Shown: positions 6,330 through 54,255 of the stretch, one piece after another
Numbering within the stretch: position 1 is the stretch's first letter
Layout of the letters: each line of letters opens with the position of its first letter
NCBI RefSeq assembly: GCF_001263175.1
Contig: NZ_CP012332.1
Location: 3,614,220-3,678,219 of the forward strand
DNA length: 64,000 nt
Direction of reading: 5' to 3'
DNA from: Vulgatibacter incomptus
GTDB taxonomy: Bacteria; Myxococcota; Myxococcia; Myxococcales; Vulgatibacteraceae
Made by a program: the position numbers and the translations under genes
The notes under the pieces: model-generated
Seen by the model: the letters and a program-made list of their open reading frames with translations, nothing else
Databases searched by the model: none
Told to the model about the DNA's origin: nothing

Positions 6330-6478
6330 GGATTGATCGAAGCGCCCGATCGGAGTCGGTCCTGACGGAATTCAGGGAGGTGCGAAACGGGGCCGTGTCC
6401 ACGAGCCGATCGTTCCGGCCTCGAGCTTGACACGTCGATCACCGCGTGAGACTGGCGCGCACTTCGAACCTGGGATCG

Positions 6479-11194: not shown

Positions 11195-11617
11195 TCAGCT
11201 CGAGACGTCGCGGAAGCCCTCGAGCATGGACTGGATCGTGTCCCGGGCTGTGCGAAAGCGCGTGAGCATCTCCTCCCGCGAGAACGACGGGTCCTTGCTC
11301 GCCGGGTCGGGGATCGGCCAGTGCAGCCTCCGAGCCTTGCCGAGGAACATCGGGCAGACTTCCTCGGCGCAGAGCGTGATGACCGTGCCCACGTCGGCGG
11401 CGTCGATCGTTTGAACCGACTTCGAGTGGTGCGTCGTCAGGTCCACGCCGACCTCGCGCATCACCTCGATGGCGTACGGGTTCACGCTGGACGGCTCGCT
11501 GCCGGCGCTCTGCACGCCGATGCGCGAACCGAACAGCTTGCGTGCGAGTCCCTCGGCCATCTGGCTGCGCGCGGAGTTGGCGACGCAAAGGAAGAGGATC
11601 GTCTTATCGGCGTTCAT
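11195..11617 (-). CDS. arsC: Arsenate reductase, LMW-PTPase family (thioredoxin-coupled ArsC)
   Basis: '[18 protein letters not shown]' is the CX5R P-loop. It is last in the arsR-acr3-arsC operon. Confidence 0.85.
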
Positions 11618-11620
11618 CGT

Positions 11621-12736
11621 TCAGGCCCTGCTCTCGGGAGCGCCCGGTACAGCACATGCGGGTGCCGCGACCTCGAGCGAGGTGCTGGGAAAGAAGCGAC
11701 GCTGCGCCCAGAGGGCGACGTTCACGAGGCCGATGAGGACGGGCACTTCGACGAGCGGCCCGATCACGGCGGCGAAGGCTGCCCCGCTGTGGATGCCGAA
11801 GCTCGCGATGGCGACGGCGATGGCGAGCTCGAAGTTGTTGGACGCTGCGGTGAACGAGAGCGTGGCGGTTTGCTTGTAGTCGGCGCCAACGCGCTTGCTC
11901 ATGAAGAACGACACCGCGAACATGACCACGAAGTAGATGAGCAGCGGGACCGCGATCCGCAGGACGTCGAGCGGCAACTGGACGATGGCCTCGCCCTTGA
12001 GCGAGAACATCACGACAATCGTGAAGAGCAGGGACACCAGCGTGACCGGCCCGATCCGCGGCACGAAGCGCGTCTCGTACCACTCGCGGCCCTTCGCGCC
12101 GACCAGCGCGCGCCGGGTGAGGAAGCCCCCGGCGAAGGGGATGCCGAGGTAGATGGCGACGCTCTTGGCAATGTCCACGATGGTGATGTCGATCACCGTG
12201 GCCTCGAGCCCGAGCCAGGTCGGCACGAGCGTAGCGAAGACGTACGCGTACACCGAGAAGAAGAGCACCTGGAAGATGGAGTTGAACGCGACGAGTCCGG
12301 CGCAGTACTCGGTGTCGCCCTTGGCGAGGTCGTTCCACACGATCACCATCGCGATGCAGCGCGCGAGGCCGATGAGGATGAGGCCGAGCATGTACTCGGG
12401 CTTGTCGCGCAGGAACACGACCGCGAGCCCGAACATCAAGAGCGGGCCGATGAGCCAGTTCTGCACCAGGGACAGCGTGAGCACCCGCTTGTTGCGGAAG
12501 ACCTTCCCCAGCTCCTCGTAGCGAACCTTCGCGAGCGGCGGGTACATCATCAGGACGAGCCCGATCGCGATAGGAATCGAGGTCGTCCCTACGCTCATCC
12601 CGTTCAGGGCGGTCGTAAAGCCCGGAGCTACGAAGCCGAGCGCGATCCCGAGCGCCATCGCCGCGAAGATCCAAAACGTCAGGTAGCGATCGAGGAACGA
12701 GAGCTTGCCGAGTAGTCCGGCATTCGTGTTGGTCAT
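11621..12736 (-). CDS. acr3: Arsenite efflux transporter, ACR3 family
   Basis: Ten-TM bile/arsenite/riboflavin fold, '[28 protein letters not shown]...'. It lies between arsR and arsC. Confidence 0.9.
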
Positions 12737-12798
12737 TGGGTGTCAGTCTATTTCGCCTATCGGCGATGAACGATTAAACAGGCGAACGAAACCCGGCA

Positions 12799-14188: not shown

Positions 14189-14848
14189 TCAGTCGGGTGC
14201 GGGATCCACTCGGTCCGCGGCGGCCCCCGGGGGCTCGCCGAGGAACTCGACCCACTCGCGCTTGATGCAGGGATAGTGCTTCGCCGCCTCGGCGAGCGAG
14301 AGGAACGCCTTCAGGCTCTTCTCGAAGCGGGCGTGCAGCGCCGGGTCGGCGAGCTCGTCTCCTTCGAACGCCTTGTGTGCCATCGAGAGGGAGAACATGT
14401 CGGGGTAGATCCGCGCTCCCTGGTGCTCGAGCGGAACGCGCAGCGCCCATAGGCCTCGATTCCCGCCGACGAGCGAGGGGGACGCCGAGAGGAGCATTCC
14501 GTGGCGCCCGTCGAAGGGCTGGGGACGGAATCGCGAGGTCCAGTCGATCAGATTCTTGATCGTGCCCGGCATCGAGGCGTTGTACTCCGGTGACGAGATG
14601 ACGAACGCGTCGCTCTCGAGGAGCCTGCGCTGCAGCTCGCGTGCGCCGGGGGGGATGCCGTCGCGGGCCTCCCCATCGCCGTCGTAGAGCGGGACGTCGA
14701 AGTCGTGCATCGACGCAAGGTCCACCGAGGCGCCCGCACGCTCCGCGACGCGGGCCGCGAGCGCGGCGAGCTTTCCGTTGAGCGACTCGCGCCGAAGAGA
14801 CGCCGAGAACACGAGCACCTTGAGGCCGGGCGAAGGTCGATTTTCCAT
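14189..14848 (-). CDS. NAD(P)H-dependent FMN reductase (flavodoxin-like; ArsH-like cannot be excluded)
   Basis: 'LKVLVFSASLRRESLNGKLAA...SPEYNASMPGTIKNLIDW' is an FMN_red fold. Confidence 0.75.
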   Translation of the reverse strand: MENRPSPGLKVLVFSASLRRESLNGKLAALAARVAERAGASVDLASMHDFDVPLYDGDGEARDGIPPGARELQRRLLESDAFVISSPEYNASMPGTIKNLIDWTSRFRPQPFDGRHGMLLSASPSLVGGNRGLWALRVPLEHQGARIYPDMFSLSMAHKAFEGDELADPALHARFEKSLKAFLSLAEAAKHYPCIKREWVEFLGEPPGAAADRVDPAPD

Positions 14849-14863
14849 GGCTGCTCCCTTGGC

Positions 14864-15559
14864 TTACGCGAGGTCGAAGAGTAGCGCCTCTGCGGGCTCC
14901 CGTGCGGCGATCACGAGACGTTCCTCTTCCGACACGGCGGCGCCATCGCCAGCCCGCAGCTCCACGCCGTTCAGCTCCACGATCCCGCGCGCGACCTGGA
15001 GCCAGGCATGCCTGCCGGGAGCGATCTCGTGGGCCACGCTCTCGCCCTCGGAGAGGAGCGTGCCGAAGATCTTCACGTCCTGGTGGATCCGGAGCGAGCC
15101 CTGCTCGCCCGTCGGCGAGACCAACACGCGGAGCACGCCTCGCCGCTCCTCCTCGGAGAACGCCTTCTGCTCGTAGCCTGGAGGGAGGCCGCCCTTCTCC
15201 GGGAGGATCCAGATCTGGAGGAAATGGACCTCCTCGTCAGAGGGATTCGTTTCGCTGTGCATCACGCCGGTGCCGGCAGTCATCCGCTGCACCTCACCCG
15301 GTCGCAGCACGCCCGCGGAGCCCGTGCTGTCGCGGTGCTCCAGCGCCCCGGACAGGACATAGGAGATGATCTCCATGTCGCGGTGGCCGTGGCGTCCGAA
15401 GCCGTTGCGGGCCTCGACCCGATCCTCGTTGATCACGCGAAGCGCCCGGAAGCCCATGTGCTTCGGGTCATGGTAGTCCGCGAACGAGAAGGTGTGGCTG
15501 CTCCGCAGCCAACCGTGATCGGCGTGTCCGCGGTCCGTGGCTCTCCGAATCGTCAGCAT
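14864..15559 (-). CDS. Pirin-family protein
   Basis: 'FSFADYHDPKHMGFRALRVINEDRV...HGHRDMEIISYVLSGALEHRDS' is a canonical pirin N-terminal cupin. Confidence 0.85.
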   Translation of the reverse strand: MLTIRRATDRGHADHGWLRSSHTFSFADYHDPKHMGFRALRVINEDRVEARNGFGRHGHRDMEIISYVLSGALEHRDSTGSAGVLRPGEVQRMTAGTGVMHSETNPSDEEVHFLQIWILPEKGGLPPGYEQKAFSEEERRGVLRVLVSPTGEQGSLRIHQDVKIFGTLLSEGESVAHEIAPGRHAWLQVARGIVELNGVELRAGDGAAVSEEERLVIAAREPAEALLFDLA

Positions 15560-15714
15560 GTTCTCTCCTTGGATCTGCGACGCAGCTCGCGCCGCAGCGC
15601 TTTCGTCGTCTCAGGCACCAACCTGGTCGAAACTAGCTTCGTTCTCTCATCTGCACTAGTCTTCGACTTGGCAACCGACTGTTGCCATGGCAGCAACAAA
15701 ACCAGAGGCACGCC

Positions 15715-36958: not shown

Positions 36959-36984
36959 GTGACTAGCCGACCGAGTTAGTCACG
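36959..36984. promoter_or_regulatory. Inverted repeat GTGACTA-N12-TAGTCAC in the AT-richer leader of the fic gene
   Basis: Seen in the sequence. It lies in a locally AT-rich stretch (taaagaattcgtgactag...) just upstream of the Fic ORF. Confidence 0.3.
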
Positions 36985-37037
36985 TGGCCGTTACTAGCGA
37001 CGCGGCTGGTCAAACAGACGTCACGAGCGAGGCCGAG

Positions 37038-38228
37038 ATGCCGAAGCGAGCCACCGGGCGATACGAGCGGACCACGGTCGGCGGAGAGGAGGTCGCGGCG
37101 TTCATCCCGCTCGCGCTTCCACCCGCAGACCCACCGCTCGCGATCGGCTCGGCGTTGGCGGATCGCCTGCGCGCTGCCGAGCAGGCGCTCGTCCGACTCG
37201 AGCTCGCGGGTGAGATGGTGCCGTCCCTCGACTGGTTCATCTACGCGTTCGTCCGCAAGGAGGCAGTCGTCTCGTCGCAGATCGAGGGCACCCAGGCCAC
37301 TCTCGTCGACCTGCTCGCGTTCGAGGCGCAGGCGAGCACGGACCAGGCAGCCCCGCCGAACGCAGATGTGGAGGAGATCTGCAACTACCTCGACGCCCTC
37401 ACGTACGCGCGCGAACAGCTCGCCGATCCGACCGGCCTTCCGCTCTCGATGCGTCTCTTGAACGGAGCTCATGATCGGCTCATGCGTGGCGTGCGCGGCG
37501 CCGAGAAGCAGCCCGGCGACGTCCGCCGAAGCCAGAACTGGATCGGCGGCAGCCGCCCCGGAAACGCCGCCTACGTCCCGCCGCCGCCCCACGTACTTGG
37601 CGAGGTCCTGAGCGCGTTCGAGAACTACCTCCACACCGAAGACACGCTGCACCCGCTCGTGCGCGCGGGCCTGCTCCATGTGCAATTCGAGACCATTCAC
37701 CCGTACCTCGATGGCAACGGCCGGATCGGGCGCCTGCTCGTCACCCTGCTGCTCGAGCACTGGAAGTTTTTGACGAAGCCACTGCTCTACCTGAGCCTGT
37801 TCTTCAAGCGGCACCGCGACGAGTACTACCGGCGGCTGAACGCGGTCCGCGTCGAAGGCGATTGGGAGGGCTGGCTGGCCTTCTTCCTCGACGGTGTCGC
37901 GACGATCGCCGACGAGGCCGTCGCCTCCGCACGTGAGCTCTTCGCGTTGATTGCCGACGATCGCGCCCGCGTGCTCGCGCTCGATGGAGTGTCGATCGGC
38001 GCGCTGCGCCTCTTCGAACTGCTTCCGCGCCACCCGATCGTGAGCGTCGCCTCCGTTACGAAGTTCGTCGAGACGAGCAAGCCGACGGCGATCCGCGCGA
38101 TCGAATTCCTCGTCGCCACCGGAGTGCTCGTCGAGTCGACGGGCAAGAAACGAGACCGCTCCTTTGCCTACCGCGCCTACCTGGATCGGCTCAAGGTCGG
38201 CACGGAGTTAGCGCGCCCCTCGCGGTAG
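37038..38228 (+). CDS. Fic/DOC-family protein (Fic_N plus Fic core plus C-terminal wHTH)
   Basis: The Fic motif 'IHPYLDGNGRIGRLLVTLLL' (HPFx[DE]GNGR) is present. The Fic_N region reads 'VRKEAVVSSQIEGTQATLVDLL'. The ATG at 37038 with a GAGG RBS is preferred over the GTG at 36984. Confidence 0.8.
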   Translation: MPKRATGRYERTTVGGEEVAAFIPLALPPADPPLAIGSALADRLRAAEQALVRLELAGEMVPSLDWFIYAFVRKEAVVSSQIEGTQATLVDLLAFEAQASTDQAAPPNADVEEICNYLDALTYAREQLADPTGLPLSMRLLNGAHDRLMRGVRGAEKQPGDVRRSQNWIGGSRPGNAAYVPPPPHVLGEVLSAFENYLHTEDTLHPLVRAGLLHVQFETIHPYLDGNGRIGRLLVTLLLEHWKFLTKPLLYLSLFFKRHRDEYYRRLNAVRVEGDWEGWLAFFLDGVATIADEAVASARELFALIADDRARVLALDGVSIGALRLFELLPRHPIVSVASVTKFVETSKPTAIRAIEFLVATGVLVESTGKKRDRSFAYRAYLDRLKVGTELARPSR

Positions 38229-40265: not shown

Positions 40266-42058
40266 ATGAACCGCGAGGAGTGGGAGATCCTTCGCGAGGG
40301 GTGGGCCTTCGAGGCGAAGCTCGCGCAGGGCCGTGATGGTCGCGGCGAGTTGCCGGCGTCGTTCTGGGAGACCTACAGCGCGTTCGCGAATACCGACGGC
40401 GGCGTCATCGTGCTCGGCGCTGCCGAGCGCAACGACGGCTCGCTCGAGGTGCGCGGCATCGCCGACCTCGACAAGGTCGAGCGCGAGCTGTGGAACAACC
40501 TTCAAAATCCGCAGAAGGTGAGCGCCAACCTGCTCACTTCGTCGAGCGTTACGCGCGAGGAGTTGGACGGGCATCAGCTCCTCGTCGTTCGAGTCCCGAA
40601 GACCACGCGCACCGCGCGTCCCGTGCACCTGAACGGATCGCTTGAGCGATCGTACCAGCGCGTTCACGAGGGTGATCGCCGCATGCGACCCGAAGTGGCG
40701 CGTCGCAGGTCGCCGACTCGATCGTCGATCGAGACTCGACCGTCGTCGAGCACTTCACAGAAGCTGACTTCGATCGTGAAAGCGTGCGTCGCTACCGCAG
40801 CCTCTTCGCGTCGAAGCGCCCCGAGCACCCGTTCGTCACCGAGGACGACACCGGCTTTCTCCGGCAGATCGGGGCGCTCAAGGCGGTACGCGGTCGGACC
40901 GATTTGGGCCTGACGCTCGGCGGGCTGCTGGTACTCGGCCGCGAACTTTCTATCCGCGAACGCTTTCCGCATTGGCACCTCAGCTACCGCGAGCTGCCGG
41001 CCGAGGTGGGCACGGATCTGCGGTGGGTAGATCGCGTCTCGTCGGACGGCTCGTGGACCGCCAACCTCTTCGAGTTCTACACGCGCGCGGTGCTCAAGCT
41101 CTACGAGGGGCTCAAGGTTCCCTTCGCGCTCGAGGGCGGGCAGTTCCGCGTCGACGAGACGCCTGCACACAAGGCGGTGCGCGAGGCATTGGTCAACACG
41201 CTGATTCACGCCGACTACGAAGGGCGCTCGGGCATCCGAGTGTTGCGCGATCCCGCTGGCTTCGAGTTCATCAACCCGGGCCTCCTGCTCGTGACGCCCG
41301 ACCAGGTTTGGAAGGGCGGCGTGAGCGAGCCACGCAACCCGCTCGTGCAACGCCTTTTCGGCTTCTTGCAGCTCGGCGAGCGCGAGGGCTCGGGTGGCCC
41401 TGCGATCCTGCGCGCGTGGTCGGAGCAGCACTGGCGCACGCCAGAGCTCGTCGAGGACGTCGAGAACTCCGAGCTTCACCTGAAGCTGCGGCTCGTGAGT
41501 CTCCTTCCGGAGGCGTCGATCGACGCCGTGCGCGCTGCGGTAGGAGCCGCCTTCGAGGCGCAGGATGAACTCGGCCGGGTCGCGCTCGTCACCGCTCACG
41601 CCGAGAACGGCGTGATGCACGCGCGCATCGCCGGGCTCACGACGGCGCATCCGCGCGACATCACGATCAAGCTCCAGGAACTGGTCCGCAAGGGGCTACT
41701 CGTCGCCAGCGGGCCTGCCCGGACGAGGCGCTACGCCCTCCCGGTAGGCACCGTGGAAAGCTCCGAGGAAAGTTCGCAGGGCTCCGAGGAAACCTCCGAG
41801 GAAAGCTCGGCAGGCACCGAGGAAACCCGTGGCTGGAGGGCCATGTCCGACCAGCTCGACGCGGTAGTGGTGTTCTGCACCCCAGCTTGGAGGACGCTCC
41901 CCGAGATCGCCACTGAGCTCGGCCGTCAGCCTAGCACCGTCCGCACGATGTACTTGAGGCCGCTGCTCGGACGCGGCGCGCTGGTCCGCAAGTACCCTGA
42001 CAACCCGCGTCACCCGCATCAGGCCTACCGAGCTGCGAACGCGAATGAGCCGACGTGA
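40266..42058 (+). pseudogene. AlbA_2 (Schlafen-like) plus HATPase_c_4 plus C-terminal HTH putative regulator (RecG-like 'ATP-binding protein'), frameshifted near nt 40700
   Basis: The N-part in frame 0 reads 'FWETYSAFANTDGGVIVLG'. After about 40700 the protein continues in frame 2 ('...ADSIVDRDSTVVEHFTEADFDRESVRRY... ALVNTLIHADYEGRSGIRV'). The C-terminus has a wHTH. Confidence 0.6.
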
Positions 42059-42444
42059 CGGCCGCACCTCCAGGACCGCGCTTGCCGCGTCTCGTGATTG
42101 GATGCCGACGGAGGCGACCAAGCGGTTGCTCGGGAGAACTGCGGCGGCGCTCGTGGTGAAGATGACCGCGTCCGCGTGCCCGATTTCGATCGCTCTTCGC
42201 TGGGCGCGATCCTCGACGGCTGGCTGAGCGGCCCGCCTAGTCGAGCCGCTGATCCCGCGGACGGGAGATCTTTGAGGACCTAGAACATCAACCTCGAAGC
42301 CTACATGGGCGACGCTCTCCGCGTCCTCGAAGGATCGGTACCTCGAGCTTGCTCCGAAATACTGGCGCGACCGCCTGCCGCCCTTTGGGATCTTGTCCCC
42401 GCCGGGTAATCTGTGCCCGCCCCAACCGCCCGGAGGCCGTCCGC

Positions 42445-43962
42445 TTGAACCCCGCCTCGCCCCCCTTGCGCCTGTTCGATCAGGTTCAGGCCTTTCAGTA
42501 CGTCGTGGCGGAGAAGGCCCCGATTTACCGGGCGATCGTCCAGGTCTTCTCCGAGGCCCGGCACCACTACGTCATCGAACTGCGACCGGCCGAGGTGCTC
42601 GACCGGATTCGCGCCGCCGGGATCTTCGTCGCGCTCGGGCCGGACGAGACGCTCGACTACTACCTCGACATGCTCGTGAAATGGGGCAACCTCGCCTCGG
42701 CGCAAGACTCAGCGACCGTGACGAGGCTCGAGGACTTCTATCGCAAGCGACTCCTCTATCGGCTGACGCCAGCGGGAGAGGCGGCACATCGAGCGGTCGC
42801 AGAGGTCGAAGATGCGATCGGCCGCTCGGGTAGGCTCCAGGCTTCGATGCTCGTCAAGATCCGCGACGAGCTCCGCGAGCTCACAGGTGACCGTGAGCCA
42901 TCGGAGCTGGTCGTCGGCCTCCACGACCTGAACGCGGCGTTCGAATCGCTCACGGAGGAGGCAAACCGATTCATCGGTGACCTCGATCGGCCAACTGGGG
43001 CCAAGCGGATGGACGAAGAGCGCTTCACCTTCTACAAGCGGGCGCTCCTCGCGTACATCCACCGCTTCGTTGGCCAGCTCCGACTCCTGGGAGACGAAAT
43101 CCGCGCGTTGATCGATGGGATCGACGCTGAGGCGCTGATCGATCGCGCGCTGCCCGGTGCCGAGCTCCCGCCGGCACGGGACGACGCGGATCCACGGGCG
43201 GACTGGCGCGCGGAGTGGCTGGCGCGGTGGACGGGGATCCGCGCATGGTTCGTGGGCACCGCCAGCTCGATGCCGACCGTGGAGCGGCTCGCGGCCGTCG
43301 CGGTCGAGGCGGTCCTGGGCCTCACGCGCTCGCTGGGTCGGCTGAGCGGCGCGAGCGCCCGCTCGATGGATCGCGCCGCGGACTTCCGCGTCCTTGCGCA
43401 CTGGTTCGGCCGTTGCCCTGACGATCGCGCGGCGCACGGCCTCTGGCACGCGGCGTTCGGCCTCTCGACGGGGCGACACTTCCACCTCGAGTCCAACGTC
43501 GAAGGCGCGCCATCCTGGTGGGATGCGGCCCCAGTTGAGGTCCCGGTGCGGCTGCGCGAGCGGGGCCAGGTCGCCGTCGCCACCGGCCGGGCGGGCGCGA
43601 TCCCGGACTACAGCGCGGCGCGGCAGTGGCTGGAGCAGAAGCGCAGGCAGGAGCGGGCGCAGCTCGACGCGGCGATCCGCCGGCTCTCGGGCGAGTTCGA
43701 GCTGCGGGACGTCGGGCGCCTCGACCCCGCCGAGTTCGATCTCTTCCTCGCCCTCCTCGATCAGGCGCTCGCCGCCCCGAAGGAGGGCGACGGCTCGCAG
43801 TCGGCCCGCACGATCGACGGGCGCGTCAGGATCCGCCTGACGCCGCCAAAGGATGACGAGCTCGTGGTCCTCGAGGCGCCGGGAGGCCGACTATGGTGCC
43901 GCAACCACCACCTCGAGGTGTCCGCCGTCGAGGGCGCGGCCTGGCGCTCGGAGGCCCGATGA
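42445..43962 (+). CDS. jetA: Wadjet type II JetA-like protein (TIGR02677/DUF2397-type), first gene of a four-gene operon
   Basis: GGAGG RBS plus TTG start. It is about 505 aa. Its stop overlaps the next start (ATGA). Position and size fit the conserved TIGR02677-78-80-79 neighbourhood. Family assignment is by context and was not verified by search. Confidence 0.6.
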   Translation: MNPASPPLRLFDQVQAFQYVVAEKAPIYRAIVQVFSEARHHYVIELRPAEVLDRIRAAGIFVALGPDETLDYYLDMLVKWGNLASAQDSATVTRLEDFYRKRLLYRLTPAGEAAHRAVAEVEDAIGRSGRLQASMLVKIRDELRELTGDREPSELVVGLHDLNAAFESLTEEANRFIGDLDRPTGAKRMDEERFTFYKRALLAYIHRFVGQLRLLGDEIRALIDGIDAEALIDRALPGAELPPARDDADPRADWRAEWLARWTGIRAWFVGTASSMPTVERLAAVAVEAVLGLTRSLGRLSGASARSMDRAADFRVLAHWFGRCPDDRAAHGLWHAAFGLSTGRHFHLESNVEGAPSWWDAAPVEVPVRLRERGQVAVATGRAGAIPDYSAARQWLEQKRRQERAQLDAAIRRLSGEFELRDVGRLDPAEFDLFLALLDQALAAPKEGDGSQSARTIDGRVRIRLTPPKDDELVVLEAPGGRLWCRNHHLEVSAVEGAAWRSEAR

Positions 43963-45140
43963 GCCGCCTCGTCCAGGTGCTCGAGGACGACGAGCGCGCA
44001 CAGCGCGTCGCGGCGATCCGCGCCCTGCTCGCGTCGCCCCTCCTGTCGGCCTCGAGCGACCCGGAGATCTTCCGAACCGTCGTCCGGCAACGCGCGTACC
44101 TGACCGAATGGTTCGCGAGCCATCCGGGCTGGCGGCTGGTGATCGATCCCTCCGGCGGCTACGCGCGCCTCCACAAGGTCCCCGGGCGCAGCGACACGAC
44201 GAAGCCGGCCCGCCGGGCCGACGGTACGCCGTTCGATCGCCGGCGCTACGCGCTCCTGTGCCTCACGCTCGCGGCGCTCGACGACGCGCCGGTGCAGACC
44301 ACCGTCGGCCGTATCGCCGCCCTCGTCGAGGAAGCCAGCGCGGACGACGAGGAAGGGGTCGCCTTCGATCCTTCGCTCGCCGCTGAGCGGCGGGCCTTCG
44401 TCGACGCCCTGCGGCTGCTCGTCTCGCTGGGCGTCCTGCGCGTGCGGGACGGAGACGCCGATCGCTACGCGCATACGCGGGAGGGAGACGCTCTCCTCGA
44501 CGTAAACGAGCGCGTGCTCGGCCAACTCCTTGCGGCGCCGATCCCTCCGGTCTTCGCCGGGACCCCGGAGGGCATGCTGGACGAGCAGCTCCCGGACACG
44601 GACGAGGGCCAGCGGCTCTCGGCCCGCTACCGGGTGATCCGCCGCCTGCTCGAGGATCCCGTGCTCTACTACGACGACCTCGACGCGCGCGCGTTCGACT
44701 GGCTCGATCATTCCCGTGGCTTTCTCTACGCCCTCCTCGAGGACGACGTCGGGATGCCGATCGAGCGCCGCAGGGAGGGCCTCGCCGCCATCGATCCGGA
44801 GGGCCTCGTTACGGACGAGCGCTTCCCCGACGGCGGCTCCACCGTCCGGCACGCGGCGCTCCTCCTCGCGTCCCACTTGGCGAAGCAGGGGGAGCGGGAC
44901 GTGGCCGTGGAGCGCGGAGCGCTCGTCGAGGTCGTCACCGCGCTTCAGGCCGATCATTCCGAGCGCTGGAGCAAGCAGTACTCCGCCGACGAGCAGGGGG
45001 CGGCGCAGCTCTGCGAGGAGGCCGTCGCGTTGCTCGAGGCCTTCGGTCTGGTGCGGCACGAAGGCGATGGGCGCCTCCGCGTCCGGCCGGCCGTCGCGCG
45101 CTTCTCGCCCGGCGAGCCGAAGAAAAAGAGGGCACGATGA
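43959..45140 (+). CDS. jetB: Wadjet type II JetB-like protein (TIGR02678/DUF2398-type)
   Basis: 393 aa. There are ATGA overlaps at both ends. It is acidic, as kleisin/MukE-like subunits are. Confidence 0.6.
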   Translation: MSRLVQVLEDDERAQRVAAIRALLASPLLSASSDPEIFRTVVRQRAYLTEWFASHPGWRLVIDPSGGYARLHKVPGRSDTTKPARRADGTPFDRRRYALLCLTLAALDDAPVQTTVGRIAALVEEASADDEEGVAFDPSLAAERRAFVDALRLLVSLGVLRVRDGDADRYAHTREGDALLDVNERVLGQLLAAPIPPVFAGTPEGMLDEQLPDTDEGQRLSARYRVIRRLLEDPVLYYDDLDARAFDWLDHSRGFLYALLEDDVGMPIERRREGLAAIDPEGLVTDERFPDGGSTVRHAALLLASHLAKQGERDVAVERGALVEVVTALQADHSERWSKQYSADEQGAAQLCEEAVALLEAFGLVRHEGDGRLRVRPAVARFSPGEPKKKRAR

Positions 45141-48100
45141 AAGTCCCGCTCGACCTCCCCGTCGCAAGCACCGGACGCTGGCAGCTCCTGCGCGCCGGCA
45201 TCCAGAACCTCTGGGAGTACGACGACCAGCGCTTCGTCTTCCACCGGGGCCGGCTCCTCCTCCGCGGACAGAACGAGTCCGGCAAGACGAAGGCCCTCGA
45301 GGTCCTCCTCCCCTTCCTCCTCGACGCAAACCTGCAGCCGAGCCGCCTTGATCCCTTCGGCAGCACGTCCCGCTCCATGCGCTGGAACTTGATCGGCGAC
45401 TGGAACCCGGAGGCGAACACCTCGATCGGTTACGTCTGGCTGGAGCTGGGGCGGGTCGAGAACGGCGAGACCCGATACTGCACCGTCGGCGCCGGGCTGC
45501 GGGCCCGGCGGGCCTCCACCGACACCGACGCCTGGTACTTCCGAACCTCTCAGCGGATCGACGTGGACCTGCTCCTGGTGGAAGACCGGCTCCCCCTCGA
45601 GCGCCCCGCCCTCACCAAGGCGATCGACGCACGCGGCCAAGTCTACCAACAGGCTGCCGAGTACCGGCGCGCCGTGAACGACGAGATCTTCGGCATGGAG
45701 GAGGAGCAGTACGGGTCGTTGATCGACGCGCTCTTGCAGCTCCGGCGCCCGCAGCTCTCGAAGAAGCTGGATCCCGAGGAGCTCTCGCAGATCCTCTCGG
45801 CGAGCTTGCCACCCCTCGATCGCACCGTCGTCGCGTCCCTCGCCGAAGGCTTCGAGCGGCTCGATAAGCACCGACTGGAGCGGGACGACGTCTCCGCCAC
45901 CCTCCAGACGTTGCGCCGCTTCCGGAAGGTCTACGAACGCTACGTCGCCTCCGCGGTGAAGGCCGCGGCGAAGGATTTGACGACCGGCGAGAGCTCCTAT
46001 CACATAGCCCGGGAGTCCCTGCGCAAGGCCGAGGAGGAGCTGGAGGCGCTCTACGGCGAGAGGAAGGCACTCGCCGGGGAGATCGCCGCGCTCGACGCAG
46101 AGCGACAAGAGCTCGCCGCCCGGCTGGCGGCCCTGCGCTCTTCCGACGGGTTTCGCGCGGTCGAGCATCTCGCGGATGCGGAGAGGCTGGCCCAGCAGGA
46201 GGAGACGCGGGCCCAGCGCGAAGGGGTCCTCGCGGCGAAGGACCGCGAGGCGGAACGCGTCGCCACGGCGCGGCTGGGCGAGGCCGAGAAGGAGAGGGTG
46301 GACCAGGGGAAGCGGGCGGAGGCCGCGCGGCGGAGCACGGCCCGGGCTGCAGAGGATGCATCCCTCGGCCAGGATCACGCCGGGATCGACGAGCTGTTCG
46401 ATCGGGGCGAGCTCGAGGCGGCGGCGAGCGCGATTGAGAGCTTGCACGGACGGCGCGAGCAGCACCTCGCCCGTCTGCGCAAGCTCGAGGACGCGGCACT
46501 GGATGCGCGCAAGCGCCGTGACCGCGCAGCGCAGGCGTTTAGCGACGCAACGGATCGTGCGGCGGATTTCCGCGACAGGCTCGACCGGGCGGAGAAGCAG
46601 GCGCAGGCGGTTCGTTCCGAGCTGGAAGATTCGATCGGGCGCTGGTCGCGAGGGCTACGGGTGCTCCTCCTCGACCCCGACGACGTGCGCGAACTCGCGC
46701 CCCTCGAGACGCCGGAGCGGGTGAGGCGCGCCGAGGAGGCCACGCGCAAAGCCCTCGGCGACCACCTGACGGCCGCGAGGCTCGAGCTCGAGAAGGTGAA
46801 AGAGGAGCTCGAAGATCGACGACGCGAGCACGACGAGCTGGCGGCCCTCACCCACCGGCCTCCGTCGGCGCCCGCGTGGAGGGCCCCGCGCCCGACCGAC
46901 AGGCCCGGCGCGCCGCTGTACCTGCTCTGCGACTTCGACGACGGCGTCGACGAGACGGTCCGGGGCGCGATCGAAGGCGCGCTCGAGGCGGCCGGCCTCC
47001 TCGACGCCTGGGTCGAGCCTTCCGGAGGTCTGCTGGACGCCGACACCTTCGACCTCGTGCTCTCACCCGCGCCGCTCGAAGGCAGAACCCTTCTCGACGT
47101 CCTCCGTCCGATGGAGGGTCCCGTTCCGGCGCCGGTGGTGGAAACCCTCCTGAGCTCGATCGCGCTTACGGACGACGGGCCCGGCGGAGAAGAGAGCTGA
47201 GTCTCCACGAACGGCCGCTTCGCGCTCGGACCGCTCCACGGCACCAACCGCAAGGCAACTCCGGAGCTCATCGGCACTACGGCGCGCGAGCGGGCGCGAA
47301 AGCGGCGCCTCGCCGAGCTCAAAGCGGCCATCGGGGGACTGGAGGAGAGCCGCGCCTCCAGAGCGCTGATCGTCGACGGGATCGAGGGCAGGCAGCGGCT
47401 CCTCGGTGAGGAGCTGCGCTCGTTCCCCGAGCTGCAGCCGCTGCACACGGCCCTCGCGAAGGCGGCGGCCGAAGCGCAGAACCTGCAGCGGGAGCGGGCG
47501 CAGGTCGAACAGGCGGCGGTCGAGAGCAAACGTGCCGAGACCGCGGAGGACGCTGCGCGGGAGGCGCTGCGGGCCGAGGGCGCGAAGCTCGAGCTCCGCG
47601 ACTGGGTGGACCGGCTCGGAGATCTAGGGCGTCTGACCGGCACGTGGGCGGTCCGCGCCAGGGAGGCGCTCGAGGCGTCGAGGCGCCTCGCGGACAGGCT
47701 GGCCACACTCGAAGAGCGGGAGGCGACGCGGGCGGCAGCGGCAAGCCGGGCGGACGAGTCCGCGGCGCGAGCGGCCTCTTGCGCGGACGAGGCGCGAGCG
47801 CTCCGCGCGACAGCGAGCGCGCTCCGCGATGCGCTGGGTGCCACCAGAGACGAGCTCCTCGAAGAGATCCGGCGGTCGGAGCGGCGGTCGAAAGAGGCCC
47901 GCGAGGAGCGCGAAGACCGCGCGGCTCGCGAAAAGGAGCTCATCGAGCGGGTCGGAGCCGGCAGCGCGACGGTTCAAGAGCGAACCGGCCGCGTTTCGGA
48001 GCAAGACGCGAAAAGGCGAACGGCCGAGCTGGTTTTTCGTGGGGTCGCCGAGCGCGGGCTCCTCGCCTTCGTCGGCGTGGAACCGGAGCGAGCGGCCGAG

Positions 48101-49126
48101 GCGTGGAGCTACACCGACGTGCTTCAGCTTGCGCGCCGGGCCGACGAGGCGACCGGATCGATCGACTGCTCACCCGACGCGAGGGATCGGGCGCGGGACC
48201 GGGTGGGCGACGCGCAGACCGACCTGACCCGGGGGATGCGGGGCGAAATCCGGATCCAGGGCCGGCAGATCGCCGGGATCCTGGAGTACACGGCGATCTG
48301 GGCCGGCCGCACCCAGGGGGTGCTCGAGCTGGAGCGCAACCTGGACGCAGACGTGCGGAGCCGGGACGAGCTGCTCGGGAAAGAGGAGAACGAGATCTTC
48401 GAGGCCTTCCTCTCGGGGGAGACGCACACCCACCTGCGAAACAGGCTCCGCGAGGCGAGCGCGCTCGTGAAGCGGATGAACGACCAGCTCGCCGCGCGCC
48501 CCACCTCCTCGGGCATGCGCATGCGCCTCAAGTGGGAGCCCGGCGAGGAGTCGCCCACGGGGACGAGGGAGGCGATTGATTTGCTCCTCCGCGCAAATCA
48601 CCTCCTCTCCGAGGCCGACCGGACCGCGCTGCGCACTTTTCTCCAGCAGCGCCTCGCGGAGGCGCGGGAGAACGACGGCGCCGGATCCCTCGAGGAGCGA
48701 ATGATGCTCGTGCTCGACTACCGCGGGTGGTTTCAATTTCGAGCGGACTTCTGCGACGCGGTCGGGACCTGGACCCGGCTCAGTCGGAAGACGCACGGCG
48801 CCGGCTCCGGCGGGCAGAAGGCGGTGATGCTGCACCTGCCGCTCTTCGCCGCCGCGGCAGCCTTCTTCGAGTCAGCGGCGAAGACCTCCCTGCGGTTGAT
48901 CGCGCTCGACGAGGCCTTCGCCGGCATCGACCGCCCGACCCGCGGTCAGCTCATGGGCCTCCTGGCTGAGTTCGACCTCGACTTCGTGATGACGTCCTTC
49001 GAGGAGTGGGGCTTCTTCCCACAGCTCGATGGCATCGCCACCTATCACTTGGCGCGGGAGAGGGGAATGCGTGGCGTGTACGCGGAGCGGTTCGTCTGGG
49101 ACGGCACGGAGCCGAGGCGGGCTTGA
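45137..49126 (+). pseudogene. jetC: Wadjet JetC-like SMC-family ATPase (TIGR02680-type), 1329 codons, interrupted by an in-frame TGA at 47198-47200
   Basis: N-terminal Walker A 'LLLRGQNESGKTKALEVLLPFLLD'. The middle is very long Arg/Glu/Ala coiled coil. The C-terminus has 'LRLIALDEAFAGID' (Walker B/D-loop). The same reading frame stays open on both sides of the TGA. Confidence 0.65.
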
Positions 49127-50373
49127 GCGCAGACAGGGAGAAGATCCGGACCCTCCTCGGAGGGCCGCGCTACGAAACGCTTTTCCGAGAGGCCCGCAAG
49201 CGCCGCGAGGAGGACGGCCGCGAGGCGCGGGCGTTCACGCTCCGGCGCGCGAACGTTGACGAGCGGAGGGCCGCCGCCGATCTCTTCGGGTGGCCCCTCG
49301 TGCCTAACGGGACCATCCGGATCTCCCTCGATGAGCTCGATCGGCAGCTTCGCGCGAGTGCCGTCGAAGCCGGGCTCGACGAGGTGCTCGAGGCCCTTGG
49401 AGGCCCGCTCGTCAATCGGCGCGCGCTGCGGGCCGCGACCGCGATCGAGCGGGAGCTGCTCTGGGAGGGAGCCGCGCGAGCGGTCGGGGAGCGGCCGGAG
49501 CTACGGGCGTGGCTCGACGACCTTCGGAGACACGGTCTCGTGTCGCGAGCGGCGCACGCCTTGAGCGTGGGCGAAGAGGTTGTGCTCGAGCGAGCGATCG
49601 CCGCCGCATCTCGGCTACCCGCGTCGGGCCTCGCCCTTGCTGTGCTCGCGGCGGAGACCACGGGGGACGCTCACGCGCTCGACGCCGGAAGCCCTCTTGG
49701 CGGACTCGTTCTGCGAGCCGCGGCCCGCATCGCCGGCTGGCACGAGCCGCCGTCCACTGCAGCGCCCAGACGTGCCCTCTGGGGCGAGGTCGGCATCGTC
49801 TGCGATCCCCTCTCGGCGCAGGTTCTCGTCCTCGGCCTGTGCCTGCAGGGCGAGGGGAGGCTCTCGCGCCGGTTGCGGGACGCCGCGCTCGACGGGGAGC
49901 CCCAGCGTCTCACGCTCCGCGAGATTGGCGGTCGGGATCTTCGGCCGGATCCGGCGGGCGAGATTTTCGTCTGCGAGAACCCGAGCGTCGTCGCCGCGGC
50001 GGCCGATCGTCTGGGCGCTCGCAGTGGGCCCCTCGTGTGCACCGAAGGCGTCCCCTCCACCGCCGCCCTGGGCCTGTTGCGCGAGCTCGCCCGCGGCGGC
50101 GCAAGGCTGCGGGTCCGGGGAGACTTCGACTGGGCCGGCCTTCGAATCGGCGGGCAGGTACTCCGGGAGGCGGGAGGCCAGCCCTGGCGCTTCTGCGCCG
50201 ACGATTACCTGGCCAGCCTCGGCACCGGCGCCGGCCGCGAGCTCGAGGGCGCTGCGGGCGCCTCGCCCTGGGACCCGGCCCTGGCGAGCGCTATGGCGCG
50301 GCACGGCACGGCAGTGTACGAGGAGCAGCTCCTCGACCTCCTGCTCCGGGATTTAGAGGTCGGCTCGTCGTAA
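49123..50373 (+). CDS. jetD: Wadjet JetD-like protein (TIGR02679/DUF2399) with a C-terminal Toprim-like domain
   Basis: A TTGA overlap with the jetC stop. 'IFVCENPSVV' (Toprim Glu) and 'VRGDFDWAGLRIGGQV' (DxD) fit a topo-VI-like Toprim. Confidence 0.6.
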   Translation: MSADREKIRTLLGGPRYETLFREARKRREEDGREARAFTLRRANVDERRAAADLFGWPLVPNGTIRISLDELDRQLRASAVEAGLDEVLEALGGPLVNRRALRAATAIERELLWEGAARAVGERPELRAWLDDLRRHGLVSRAAHALSVGEEVVLERAIAAASRLPASGLALAVLAAETTGDAHALDAGSPLGGLVLRAAARIAGWHEPPSTAAPRRALWGEVGIVCDPLSAQVLVLGLCLQGEGRLSRRLRDAALDGEPQRLTLREIGGRDLRPDPAGEIFVCENPSVVAAAADRLGARSGPLVCTEGVPSTAALGLLRELARGGARLRVRGDFDWAGLRIGGQVLREAGGQPWRFCADDYLASLGTGAGRELEGAAGASPWDPALASAMARHGTAVYEEQLLDLLLRDLEVGSS

Positions 50374-50440
50374 CTAATGCACGAGCCCGGCTGCCCGGGC
50401 GCGACTCGCCGTGCCGCGGAGGCCGTCGGTGCGCTAGTAG

Positions 50441-52572
<2,132 letters not shown>

Positions 52573-52681
52573 AGTGACCTCGACTGAACGTTTGCATCAA
52601 AGGCTCAACCACGAGCGTCGTCATTGTCAAGGGCTGGAGCGTCAGGATGATCGAGAGGGCTCCCGGTGAGCGATAAGCCGA

Positions 52682-53329
52682 TCAAATGGGCTCCGCCCGA
52701 TGCCCACCCACGAGGTAGAGGCGCTCCCGCATGTCGATGCCGCTCGCGCGGGACTGTGGCCCCTCCGTGCGGCGATCCTCGAGGCGCTCCACCGCGGGGA
52801 AGTAGCGACGCAACTCATCCTCGCCCACCGAAAAGGGCGGACCTGCCATCCGCTCCTGCGGGTACTCGAAGCAGATCACCAGGCCCGGCGCGTCCTCGCC
52901 CGCCAGCTCGCGCAGGTGCGCGGCGTAGCGCGGGCGAAGCTCAGGCGGGAGCGCGACGATCGCCGCTCGATCGTAGAAGGCGGTGATCGCTCCGACGTCC
53001 TCCGGGCGGGCGTCGAAGAAGTCGCCCTGGAGGATCGTGATCCCGCCCGCCGAGCGCTCCACCAACGCGCCGCGCGGCGACGGAGCGGCCTCGAGGCCGT
53101 GCTCCCGAAAGAACTCCTCCGCGGCGGCCTCGGCCAGCTCGATCCCCACGACCTCGTGGCCGAGCGAACGCAGGTACGCCATGTCCTCCGTCTTTCCGCT
53201 CAAGGGGACGAGCACGCGGCCGGGAGGGCCGAGTGCCCGGGCGTGAGAGACGAGGAGATCGTTCGGGCGCCCTTCGTGAAAGCCGATCCGTCCTTCGCGC
53301 CAGCGTGACAGCCAGAATTCCGCATCCAT
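52682..53329 (-). CDS. Thiopurine S-methyltransferase (TPMT) family protein
   Basis: 'MDAEFWLSRWREGRIGFHEGRPNDLLVSHARAL...VLVPLSGKTEDMAYL' is a TPMT N-terminus. The upstream 256 codons of the ORF are the antisense shadow of the patatin gene. Confidence 0.75.
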   Translation of the reverse strand: MDAEFWLSRWREGRIGFHEGRPNDLLVSHARALGPPGRVLVPLSGKTEDMAYLRSLGHEVVGIELAEAAAEEFFREHGLEAAPSPRGALVERSAGGITILQGDFFDARPEDVGAITAFYDRAAIVALPPELRPRYAAHLRELAGEDAPGLVICFEYPQERMAGPPFSVGEDELRRYFPAVERLEDRRTEGPQSRASGIDMRERLYLVGGHRAEPI

Positions 53330-53487
53330 CCCCACAGCATAACGATCGATGCGGGACAGAACGAGAGCGAACGGCGCCCAGGCGCAGTCGACGACCCCCT
53401 CGGCATTCTCGGTGGTTCGGGCGGTCTGGCCCGACCGTGGGCAAGGCCCTGTTGAATTCCAAATGCCAAACGTCGATCTTCGACAGG

Positions 53488-54255
53488 ATGACGATGTCCG
53501 CCCTTGGAACGAGAACTCTCGCCGAATGGCTCGCCGAGGAGCCATTCGCGCTGGCGATGTCCTCCGGATTCTTCTCCTTCTACGCCCACACCGGGTTCTT
53601 GGCGGCGCTCGAGGACGCCGGCCTGACGCCCGCGCGCGTCTCGGGATCGAGCGCAGGAGCGCTGGTCGGGGGCGCCTGGGCCGCGGGCGTCGACGCACCC
53701 GTGCTGGCTGCGGAGCTCGAGCGGCTCGAGCGGCGAGACTTCTGGGACCCGGGCTTCGGGCCCGGGCTCCTTCGCGGCCGCCTGTTTCGCGAGAGGATCG
53801 AAGGTCTCCTACCCGCCGAGACCTTCGACCGTTGCCGTGTGCCGGCGGCCGTCTCCGTCTTCGACGTACGCTCGCGCAAGACGCGCGTGATCGAGATGGG
53901 ACGACTCGGCCCGGCGATCTGCGCGTCGTGCGCCGTCCCGTTCCTTTTCCAGCCCGTGCGGATCGAAGGCCGGTCCTACTTCGATGGCGGGATCCTCGAT
54001 CGGCCCGGTCTCGCGGGGATGCCGCCCAGCACCCCTCGGGTGCTCCACCACCACATCGCCTCGCGCTCACCGTGGCGGATGAGCGCCGAGCCGCCATCGA
54101 GGCAGGGCATGCTCTCCTTCGTCATCGACGGGCTCCCGCGCTCCGGACCCTTTCGACTCGAGGAAGGGCGGCGCGCGTTCAGCCTCGCCCGAGAAGCGAC
54201 GAGGCGGGCCCTCGACCAGCCCGTGAGGGATGAAATCCTCCGTGTGCGGGCCTGA
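53488..54255 (+). CDS. Patatin-like phospholipase
   Basis: 'GTRTLAEWL...MSSGFFSFYAHTGFLAALEDAG' (oxyanion hole), 'GSSAG' (GxSxG) and 'DGG' (catalytic Asp). Confidence 0.8.
   Translation: MTMSALGTRTLAEWLAEEPFALAMSSGFFSFYAHTGFLAALEDAGLTPARVSGSSAGALVGGAWAAGVDAPVLAAELERLERRDFWDPGFGPGLLRGRLFRERIEGLLPAETFDRCRVPAAVSVFDVRSRKTRVIEMGRLGPAICASCAVPFLFQPVRIEGRSYFDGGILDRPGLAGMPPSTPRVLHHHIASRSPWRMSAEPPSRQGMLSFVIDGLPRSGPFRLEEGRRAFSLAREATRRALDQPVRDEILRVRA

What the first reader, a model, noticed from the sequence alone, without database searches (positions are those of the whole stretch)
47150..47260. In-frame TGA splits the jetC SMC-ATPase in an otherwise continuous 1329-codon reading frame
The frame beginning at 45137 reads '...LTDDGPGGEES' then TGA (47198-47200). 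It continues uninterrupted in the same frame ('VSTNGRFALGPLHG...') to the ABC signature and Walker B at 48.9-49.1 kb. Codon usage on both sides is typical coding. The system may therefore be inactivated by a single nonsense mutation, or this is a sequencing error.
Basis: seen in the sequence. Interest (0 to 1): 0.6.

Follow-up and report, generated by a model that had tools for sequence, protein, structure and literature searches.

The report
Premature stop codon in Wadjet jetC
A single-base change has turned a conserved tryptophan codon into a stop codon in the middle of the motor gene of an anti-plasmid defence operon, so as written the system is probably switched off; this is an ordinary broken gene, or a base-calling error, not a new kind of feature.

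Summary
TGA at 47198-47200 interrupts a 1329-codon frame (45137-49126, +). This frame is jetC of a complete type II Wadjet operon (JetA2/B2/C2/D2; TIGR02677/78/80/79). The two halves match adjacent parts of the same family profile (1-705 and 711-1354 of 1356).

In the 60 closest full-length homologs the stop column is tryptophan in 56. The simplest origin is therefore TGG to TGA, a G-to-A transition.

The codon lies in the SMC hinge, in the first of the last three beta-strands, just before the descending coiled coil.

A natural split is not supported. There is no in-frame ATG/GTG/TTG until 47606, which has no Shine-Dalgarno sequence, and all 120 best homologs are single chains.

Programmed recoding is not supported either. 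There is no SECIS-like hairpin and no Rfam match, and TGA ends the neighbouring genes exactly where their family profiles end.

The downstream half shows no decay: 42 of 42 invariant residues are kept and GC3 is 0.877 against 0.879. The change is therefore either very recent or a sequencing error. The sequence alone cannot tell these apart, and no close relative or source reads were found.

Interest is low.

The parts
42445..43962 (+). jetA (type II kleisin-like subunit; DUF2397/TIGR02677). The probable start is TTG 42445; the longest ORF starts at TTG 42349.
   Evidence: TIGR02677 E=7.9e-106; DUF2397 E=6e-131. (PADLOC JetA2 E=4.9e-135, residues 12-499 of the 505-aa version). One search shows GGAGG at 42432-42436 upstream of TTG 42445.
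43959..45140 (+). jetB (type II tandem-KITE subunit; DUF2398/TIGR02678), 393 aa. Its start ATG overlaps the jetA stop (ATGA).
   Evidence: One search shows GGAGG at 43950-43954 and ATGA at 43959-43962. One search shows PADLOC JetB2 E=2.4e-120 aligning residues 1-391 to profile 1-392 of 404, which supports this start.
45137..47197 (+). jetC, upstream part (codons 1-687): N-terminal half of the ATPase head, ascending coiled coil and about two thirds of the hinge. Its start ATG overlaps the jetB stop (ATGA).
   Evidence: TIGR02680 profile 1-705, E=1.8e-148; JetC2 6-706 of 1361, E=3.6e-193.
45266..45289 (+). Walker A / P-loop of JetC (GQNESGKT, residues 44-51)
   Evidence: G, N, G and K of this motif are invariant in alignment A1.
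46907..47245 (+). Hinge (dimerisation) domain of JetC, about residues 591-703. It is interrupted by the stop.
   Evidence: AlphaFold2 model of the homologous segment of P0001, pLDDT 88.2, globular part between the ascending helix and the descending helix; best structural matches are nvJetC 9QE0 (E=1.6e-11) and the SMC hinges 5H69, 4RSJ and 4RSI; alignment to 9QE0 chain A.
47198..47200 (+). In-frame TGA (codon 688) at the position of a conserved Trp. The inferred ancestral codon is TGG. The next base (+4) is G.
   Evidence: W in 56 of 60 close homologs. (W in 42 of 56 in a wider set). (the Trp lies in strand 147-150 of the model, the first of the last three hinge strands).
47201..49126 (+). jetC, downstream part (codons 689-1329 plus the stop): the last three hinge strands, the descending coiled coil and the C-terminal half of the ATPase head. 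It has no start codon of its own.
   Evidence: TIGR02680 profile 711-1354, E=4.5e-119; JetC2 711-1352, E=4.6e-160. Searches show the first in-frame ATG/GTG/TTG is GTG 47606, with no Shine-Dalgarno sequence. One search shows 42 of 42 invariant columns retained.
48803..48820 (+). ABC signature motif of JetC (GSGGQK, residues 1223-1228)
   Evidence: S, G and G are invariant in A1.
48890..48919 (+). Walker B and D-loop region of JetC (LRLIALDEAF, residues 1252-1261)
   Evidence: (PF13558 SbcC_Walker_B, E=2.7e-23).
49123..50373 (+). jetD (nuclease subunit; DUF3323 + DUF2399/TIGR02679), 416 aa. Its start TTG overlaps the jetC stop (TTGA).
   Evidence: One search shows PADLOC JetD2 E=3.6e-125 aligning residues 1-413 to profile 1-419 of 423, which supports this start.

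Best explanation
This is a genuine and evolutionarily very recent nonsense mutation, TGG (Trp688) to TGA by a G-to-A transition, in jetC of a type II Wadjet (JetABCD/EptABCD) anti-plasmid operon.

Shown here: the stop sits in the SMC hinge at a conserved Trp. Nothing in the sequence lets translation restart or recode. The rest of the operon is intact.

Inferred: release factor 2 ends translation at codon 688. The product is a 687-residue fragment carrying Walker A, the ascending coiled-coil strand and an incomplete hinge. It lacks the last three hinge strands, the descending coiled-coil strand and the C-terminal head lobe with the signature motif and Walker B. Such a fragment cannot form an ABC ATPase head or an antiparallel SMC arm. 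No JetABC loop-extruding motor would assemble, JetD would not be licensed to cut, and plasmid restriction would be lost.

All three gene junctions are 4-nt overlaps (ATGA, ATGA, TTGA). Stopping 1.9 kb early should therefore also uncouple jetD translation.

Rare misreading of UGA by Trp-tRNA(Trp) would regenerate the exact wild-type protein, so the allele may be a strong hypomorph rather than an absolute null.
For: The TGA is in frame.

Both halves match contiguous parts of one profile.

The stop column is W in 56 of 60 close homologs. TGG is one transition from TGA, and no homolog has Cys there.

All 120 best homologs are single chains of 1089-1537 aa. Four, of 1089-1261 aa, are shorter than full length, and two of these are labelled partial in their source records.

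The Trp maps to the first of the last three beta-strands of the hinge, directly before the descending helix.

There is no in-frame start for 135 codons and no Shine-Dalgarno sequence at 47606.

There is no SECIS-like fold (z=+0.85), no Rfam hit and no tRNA in the window.

TGA is the terminator of jetA, jetB and jetC exactly where their family profiles end.

About 30 other genes in the window were inspected and none is interrupted.

jetC is a large mutational target: 18 TGG, 16 CGA, 38 CAG and 6 CAA codons are each one transition from a stop.

There is precedent for loss of this system. A null mutation in EptABCD underlies the high transformability of the laboratory M. smegmatis strain (PMC10586767; PMC12287153). 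jetABCD was spontaneously deleted in C. cellulovorans. The only closer relative found, a Vulgatibacter MAG, keeps just a remnant of jetC and a damaged jetD.
Against: Nothing in the sequence separates a real mutation from a base-call error. The downstream half shows no relaxation: 42 of 42 invariant and 53 of 58 near-invariant residues are kept, against 42 of 42 and 66 of 70 upstream, and GC3 is equal. This is what an error would also look like.

No reads, no source record and no relative closer than 51% identity over the full length could be found.

Loss of function, polarity on jetD and readthrough level are inferred, not measured.

W is not universal in the family. It is W in 42 of 56 in the wider set and His in N. 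vireti JetC, so the ancestral codon is inferred rather than proven.
Confidence: 0.6

Rival explanations
1. This is a sequencing or assembly base error. The organism really has TGG (Trp) at codon 688 and an intact, functional jetC, and the A at 47200 is a consensus miscall.
For: The change is a single base. The downstream 641 codons are perfectly preserved: 42 of 42 invariant residues, all ATPase motifs and GC3 of 0.877. The whole operon is otherwise intact, with preserved 4-nt overlaps.
Against: The site is not in a homopolymer or a repeat (AGAGCTGAGTCTCC). From general knowledge, consensus errors concentrate in homopolymers and repeats, and substitution errors in finished consensus sequence are much rarer than indels. 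No other interrupted gene was seen among about 30 inspected in the window, so the assembly does not look error-prone. A very recent real mutation predicts exactly the same pattern.
Confidence: 0.3
2. The allele is leaky or tuned. The TGA is real, but near-cognate decoding by Trp-tRNA(Trp) yields a small, biologically meaningful amount of wild-type full-length JetC. The result would be an attenuated, or reversibly switchable, Wadjet rather than a dead one.
For: In E. coli the UGA readthrough level is set mainly by competition between the Trp-tRNA(Trp) ternary complex and RF2 (PMC10570021). UGA is the leakiest stop and +4U is the strongest context, whereas the +4 base here is G (PMC5289835). Because the ancestral residue is Trp, any readthrough product is wild type. 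The downstream half is undecayed.
Against: No readthrough-stimulating structure or known element follows the stop. No homolog among 120 has a stop here. Lack of decay is equally explained by recency or by error. From general knowledge, basal readthrough is usually well below a few percent, and JetC must act as a dimer in a dimer-of-motors, so low dosage would hit activity hard.
Confidence: 0.06
3. This is a natural gene fission. JetC is made as two polypeptides that assemble at the hinge, giving a two-chain SMC.
For: The stop is near the midpoint of the protein in the hinge, the one place where the two antiparallel halves of an SMC arm meet.
Against: There is no ATG/GTG/TTG in frame for 135 codons after the stop, and GTG 47606 has no Shine-Dalgarno sequence. 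A product starting at 47606 would lack the conserved motif (VSTNGRFALGPLHG here) and part of the descending coil. The cut falls inside a beta-sheet, not between domains. None of the 120 best homologs is split here. The stop replaces a conserved residue rather than sitting in an inserted linker.
Confidence: 0.02
4. This is programmed recoding of TGA, either as selenocysteine or through a genome-wide TGA=Trp code.
For: TGA is the codon used for both kinds of recoding, and the aligned residue is Trp.
Against: The 81 nt from the stop fold no better than shuffles (-21.5 kcal/mol, z=+0.85), and there is no Rfam match. Homologs have W at this position, not Cys. TGA ends jetA, jetB and jetC, and most other genes in the window, at the ends of their family profiles. 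No second in-frame TGA was seen in about 30 genes. From general knowledge, about 70% G+C is the opposite of the composition of known TGA=Trp lineages.
Confidence: 0.02

Closest known systems
Type II Wadjet JetABCD of Neobacillus vireti (PDB 9QE0/9QE1; bioRxiv 10.1101/2025.03.10.642339)
   Same: It has the same four-gene architecture and families (JetA2/B2/C2/D2). A JetC profile from this clade matches nvJetC end to end (E=8.9e-194). The hinge model matches the 9QE0 chains best (E=1.6e-11). JetB is the long tandem-KITE type (393 aa, DUF2398).
   Different: The hinge-segment model of homolog P0001 is only about 23-24% identical to nvJetC in the structural alignment. The stop column is His699 in nvJetC, not Trp. 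nvJetC is one uninterrupted 1371-aa chain with demonstrated plasmid cleavage, whereas jetC here carries an in-frame stop and has no functional data.
EptABCD null allele of the laboratory Mycobacterium smegmatis strain (Panas et al. 2014, as cited in PMC10586767 and PMC12287153)
   Same: It belongs to the same system family; those papers treat EptABCD as the homolog of, or another name for, JetABCD. A spontaneous null mutation in the operon abolishes plasmid restriction, which is the outcome proposed here.
   Different: I could not read the primary paper, so the nature and position of that mutation were not compared. That case has a demonstrated phenotype, and this one has none.
Spontaneous jetABCD deletion in Clostridium cellulovorans (PMC12287153)
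   Same: Wadjet was lost spontaneously in a natural host, and plasmid uptake increased.
   Different: That event was a 23-kb deletion removing the whole operon, not a point nonsense mutation, and it involved a different phylum.
Wadjet remnant in a Vulgatibacter incomptus MAG (locus L002, JBEBXK010000057.1)
   Same: It is the closest relative of this locus found: 81-85% aa identity over the last ~50 codons of jetC and about 60-67% over parts of JetD. It also carries a non-functional Wadjet.
   Different: It is much further decayed. jetA, jetB and all but the last ~50 codons of jetC are gone, and jetD has lost residues 78-245 and changes frame. Its flanks are not syntenic with the window.

Membership tests
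Type II Wadjet (JetABCD / EptABCD; TIGR02677-TIGR02680) | Four adjacent co-oriented genes in the order jetA-jetB-jetC-jetD, each matching the type II family models | tested here: met
   TIGR02677, 02678, 02680 and 02679 are all above their curated cut-offs, except that the C-terminal jetC half alone scores 399 against 463. DUF2397, DUF2398, SbcC_Walker_B and DUF3323+DUF2399. PADLOC JetA2, JetB2, JetC2 and JetD2, E from 1e-120 to 1e-193.
Type II Wadjet (JetABCD / EptABCD; TIGR02677-TIGR02680) | JetC carries the ABC/SMC ATPase motifs (Walker A, signature, Walker B) split between the N and C termini, with a central hinge | tested here: met
   GQNESGKT (residues 44-51), GSGGQK (1223-1228) and LRLIALDEAF (1252-1261); the central segment models as an SMC hinge, with 9QE0 the best match.
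Type II Wadjet (JetABCD / EptABCD; TIGR02677-TIGR02680) | JetC is encoded as one uninterrupted polypeptide of about 1330-1370 aa | tested here: not met
   there is an in-frame TGA at codon 688; all 120 best homologs are single chains. The locus therefore belongs to the family by descent, but as written it encodes a disrupted jetC.
Type II Wadjet (JetABCD / EptABCD; TIGR02677-TIGR02680) | Tandem-KITE JetB, about twice the length of type I JetB | tested here: met
   393 aa, aligned 1-391 to JetB2 profile 1-392 of 404. DUF2398 plus a weak DUF4194 match. The tandem-KITE feature is described in 10.1101/2025.03.10.642339.
Type II Wadjet (JetABCD / EptABCD; TIGR02677-TIGR02680) | ATP-dependent restriction of circular plasmid DNA | not testable with these tools
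   This requires transformation or conjugation assays or in vitro reconstitution.
Naturally split (two-gene) protein | The downstream part has its own start codon and ribosome-binding site close to the upstream stop | tested here: not met
   the first in-frame ATG/GTG/TTG is GTG 47606, 135 codons downstream, and no GGAGG-like sequence precedes it.
Naturally split (two-gene) protein | Orthologs show the same fission | tested here: not met
   none of the 120 best homologs is split; they read straight through the site with W.
Selenoprotein (UGA = Sec) | A SECIS stem-loop immediately 3' of the UGA | tested here: not met
   MFE -21.5 kcal/mol against a shuffle mean of -24.2, z=+0.85; no Rfam hit at E<=1.
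Selenoprotein (UGA = Sec) | Homologs carry Cys (or Sec) at the aligned position | tested here: not met
   W 56, G 1, V 1, A 1, S 1 and no Cys at the stop column. The Cys common in homologs is in the preceding column.
Genome-wide TGA=Trp code (tables 4/25) | TGA is not used as a terminator, and in-frame TGAs at Trp positions occur in many genes | tested here: not met
   jetA, jetB and jetC end at TGA where their profiles end; most genes in the window end at TGA, and no other in-frame TGA was seen in about 30 genes.

The most novel reading that the evidence does not exclude
The TGA is real and maintained. Because UGA is misread mainly by Trp-tRNA(Trp) and the ancestral residue is Trp, the codon would act as a dosage valve. 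It would let through a small amount of perfectly wild-type JetC, or act as a one-step reversible off switch (TGA back to TGG). Either way the host could tolerate or acquire plasmids while keeping the Wadjet operon ready for reactivation.
Probability: 0.06. Interest if true: 0.45.

Novelty: new member of a known kind. Interest (0 to 1): 0.15.

Why it matters
The finding matters little beyond annotation. If the stop is real, this genome carries a freshly inactivated type II Wadjet, and the strain should be more permissive to plasmids than a relative with intact jetC. That is a practical point for anyone trying to transform this organism, which is probably a myxobacterium. It would also be one more example of how readily defence systems are lost. 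If the stop is an error, jetC should be annotated as intact. Either way the gene should be annotated as one jetC with an internal stop, not as two genes.

Tried and rejected
1. Finding the source genome or a close relative, to read the codon in independent sequence, failed.
- A genome-contig scan returned only two distant loci.
- Exact-protein look-ups for the JetC N-terminal half, JetB and ArsC found nothing.
- Plasmid megablast found nothing.
- An exact 26-nt pattern with the third codon base left free found nothing in metagenomes.
- The best full-length protein homolog is only 51% identical.

2. Other 'in-frame stops' in the window were checked. Two same-frame, high-GC3 ORF pairs (11195-12742 and 14189-15610, minus strand) proved to be ordinary adjacent genes, each with its own ATG (ACR3/ArsC and pirin/FMN reductase).

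3. Selenocysteine or structured recoding was rejected.

4. Restart at GTG 47606 was rejected.

5. An unfiltered tblastx of the window against L002 gave only compositional noise. It was redone with a score filter.

6. I tried to read Panas et al. 2014 (PMC4169951) for the exact eptC lesion, but the paper is not held.

7. The promoter and terminator scan of the operon gave nothing informative: no promoter-like sites, and one terminator-like site within chance expectation.

Full report
**Observation.** The sequence reads ...GAA GAG AGC TGA GTC TCC ACG... with TGA at 47198-47200. Translation from ATG 45137 gives 687 residues ending ...LTDDGPGGEES. The stop follows, and then 641 residues from VSTNGRFALGPLHG... 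run to TGA 49124-49126. The mechanical ORF list shows 45137..47200 (687 aa). The next ORF in that frame starts only at GTG 47606.

**What the gene is.** The four co-oriented genes are a type II Wadjet operon.
- jetA: TIGR02677/DUF2397.
- jetB: TIGR02678/DUF2398.
- jetC: TIGR02680, with SbcC_Walker_B.
- jetD: TIGR02679, with DUF3323 and DUF2399.

PADLOC assigns JetA2, JetB2, JetC2 and JetD2, with E-values from 1e-120 to 1e-193. The two jetC halves match adjacent parts of a single profile: TIGR02680 positions 1-705 and 711-1354 of 1356, and JetC2 positions 6-706 and 711-1352 of 1361. This is therefore one gene with one interruption, not two genes and not chance. Walker A (45266-45289) lies upstream of the stop. 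The signature motif (48803-48820) and Walker B (48890-48919) lie downstream.

**Gene junctions.** jetA/jetB overlap as ATGA at 43959-43962, preceded by GGAGG. jetB/jetC overlap as ATGA at 45137-45140. jetC/jetD overlap as TTGA at 49123-49126. The PADLOC alignments start at residue 1 for JetB and JetD with these starts. This is the classic arrangement for translational coupling.

**What stood at the stop codon.** The database search returned 530 homologs. The best 120 are all single chains of 1089-1537 aa, and the closest is 51% identical. In an alignment with the 60 closest full-length homologs, the stop column is W in 56 (G, V, A and S once each). It sits in the conserved motif c-W-V-S-x-D-G-R-F-x-L-G-P-L-x-G. 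In a wider set of 56 sequences it is W in 42. TGG is one G-to-A transition from TGA. Cys never occurs in that column. The most parsimonious history is TGG to TGA.

**Where it is in the protein.** A profile of this clade matches the solved type II JetC of Neobacillus vireti (9QE0/9QE1) end to end, with E=8.9e-194. The stop column aligns to His699 in FHVDVDGSYSLGCLVG. An AlphaFold2 model of the homologous segment of P0001 (residues 545-800, pLDDT 88.2) has the following layout:
- an ascending helix;
- a globular alpha/beta domain;
- a three-strand meander, at model residues 147-150, 154-157 and 160-163;
- the long descending helix.

The Trp is model residue 148, in the first of those three strands. 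Foldseek ranks 9QE0 first (E=1.6e-11), followed by the SMC hinge crystal structures 5H69, 4RSJ and 4RSI. The stop therefore cuts inside the hinge fold, not between domains.

**Alternatives tested.**

- *Natural split.* No ATG, GTG or TTG lies in frame between 47201 and 47606. The sequence before 47606 (gagctccgcgactgg|gtg) has no Shine-Dalgarno sequence. A product starting there would lack the conserved hinge motif. No homolog is split. This is rejected.
- *Selenocysteine or structured readthrough.* The 81 nt from the stop fold at -21.5 kcal/mol, against -24.2 for shuffles (z=+0.85). There is no Rfam match at E<=1 and no tRNA gene in the window. Homologs have Trp, not Cys. This is rejected.
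- *TGA=Trp code.* TGA terminates jetA, jetB and jetC where their profiles end, and it terminates most other genes in the window. The two other same-frame ORF pairs that looked similar are normal neighbouring genes with their own ATG. About 20 further genes give full-length Pfam matches. This is rejected.

**Real mutation or error?** The downstream half keeps all 42 invariant and 53 of 58 near-invariant residues of the family, against 42 of 42 and 66 of 70 upstream. GC3 is 0.877 against 0.879. jetA, jetB and jetD are intact. This pattern fits a very recent mutation or a base-call error equally well.

Three points favour a real change. The site is not in a homopolymer or repeat. Nothing else in the window looks miscalled. 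And jetC is a large target, with 78 codons one transition from a stop.

There is also biological precedent for losing this system. A null mutation in EptABCD explains the high plasmid uptake of the laboratory M. smegmatis strain (PMC10586767; PMC12287153). C. cellulovorans lost jetABCD spontaneously and gained conjugation efficiency. The only closer relative of this locus that I found, in a Vulgatibacter MAG, is a remnant. It has the last ~50 codons of jetC at 81-85% identity, plus a jetD with an internal deletion and a frame change.

I put a real mutation at about 0.6 and an error at about 0.3. Reads or resequencing would settle it.

**Mechanism (inferred).** Termination at codon 688 leaves a fragment with half an ATPase head, one strand of the coiled coil and an incomplete hinge. 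Without the C-terminal lobe there is no signature motif or Walker B, and hence no ATP-driven head engagement. Without the descending strand there is no SMC arm. JetABC motors should not form, and JetD should not be activated. These roles for the parts are as described for types I and II in 10.1101/2025.03.10.642339.

Loss of translation over the last 1.9 kb of jetC should also uncouple the overlapping jetD start. UGA readthrough is set by competition between Trp-tRNA(Trp) and RF2 (PMC10570021). UGA is the leakiest stop, and non-U +4 bases are weaker contexts (PMC5289835); the +4 base here is G. Any readthrough product would be the wild-type protein, so a trace of activity cannot be excluded.

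**Verdict.** This is an ordinary premature stop, or a miscall, in a known type of defence gene. The locus is a new and fairly divergent member of type II Wadjet (51% identity to the nearest full-length JetC). Nothing about the interruption suggests a new mechanism. It should be annotated as a single jetC with an internal stop.

Noticed in passing
L002:6001-7223 (JBEBXK010000057.1, MAG labelled Vulgatibacter incomptus): A degraded Wadjet remnant. Only the last ~50 codons of jetC survive, at 81-85% aa identity to the window, preceded by unrelated sequence. The jetD has lost residues 78-245 and changes frame. The flanks are not syntenic with the window. It is the closest relative of this locus found and suggests the window comes from a Vulgatibacter-like myxobacterium.
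   Followed up: partly
window 36963-38228 (+): A Fic/DOC protein matches the PADLOC single-gene defence system SoFic (E=1.2e-109) about 4 kb upstream of jetA. Wadjet therefore sits in a small defence island.
   Followed up: partly
window 40784-42058 (+): The gene immediately upstream of jetA has HATPase_c_4 and Fic-like_C domains and no PADLOC match. It could be a regulator or another defence-island gene. Its function is unclear.
   Followed up: no
window 43959-43962, 45137-45140, 49123-49126: All three junctions of the jet operon are 4-nt start/stop overlaps (ATGA, ATGA, TTGA). This implies tight translational coupling of jetA, jetB, jetC and jetD.
   Followed up: partly
PADLOC model PDLC00554 (hit to window 45137-47197, residues 11-397): PADLOC contains a JetC2 model only 390 positions long that covers just the N-terminal head region. 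Some database JetC2 entries may therefore be fragments, or split at a different point near residue 390. This was not examined.
   Followed up: no
window 6337-8583 (+) and 50743-52572 (-): Two large proteins each carry a single EGF_3 domain. Bacterial EGF-domain proteins are unusual outside Myxococcota. The minus-strand ORF immediately downstream of jetD is the better gene candidate there (stop-to-stop ORF 50743-52596, GC3 0.89). The 736-aa plus-strand ORF 50377-52587 has no family hit.
   Followed up: no
window 11195-12742 (-) and 14189-15610 (-): Two gene pairs lie in the same reading frame only 1-5 codons apart: an ACR3 arsenite transporter followed by ArsC, and a pirin followed by an FMN reductase. 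They mimic an in-frame stop but are normal pairs, each with its own ATG.
   Followed up: yes
window 43000-50800: The jet operon has higher G+C (0.70-0.745) than the sequence just upstream of it (about 0.66-0.68). The high G+C continues to about 51.1 kb and recurs around 51.4-52.6 kb. This is compatible with horizontal acquisition but was not tested.
   Followed up: no
window 52682-54097 (-): A 471-aa ORF carries a thiopurine S-methyltransferase (TPMT) domain only in its C-terminal 200 residues. The N-terminal 250 residues have no family match, so either the start is downstream or there is an uncharacterised N-terminal domain.
   Followed up: no
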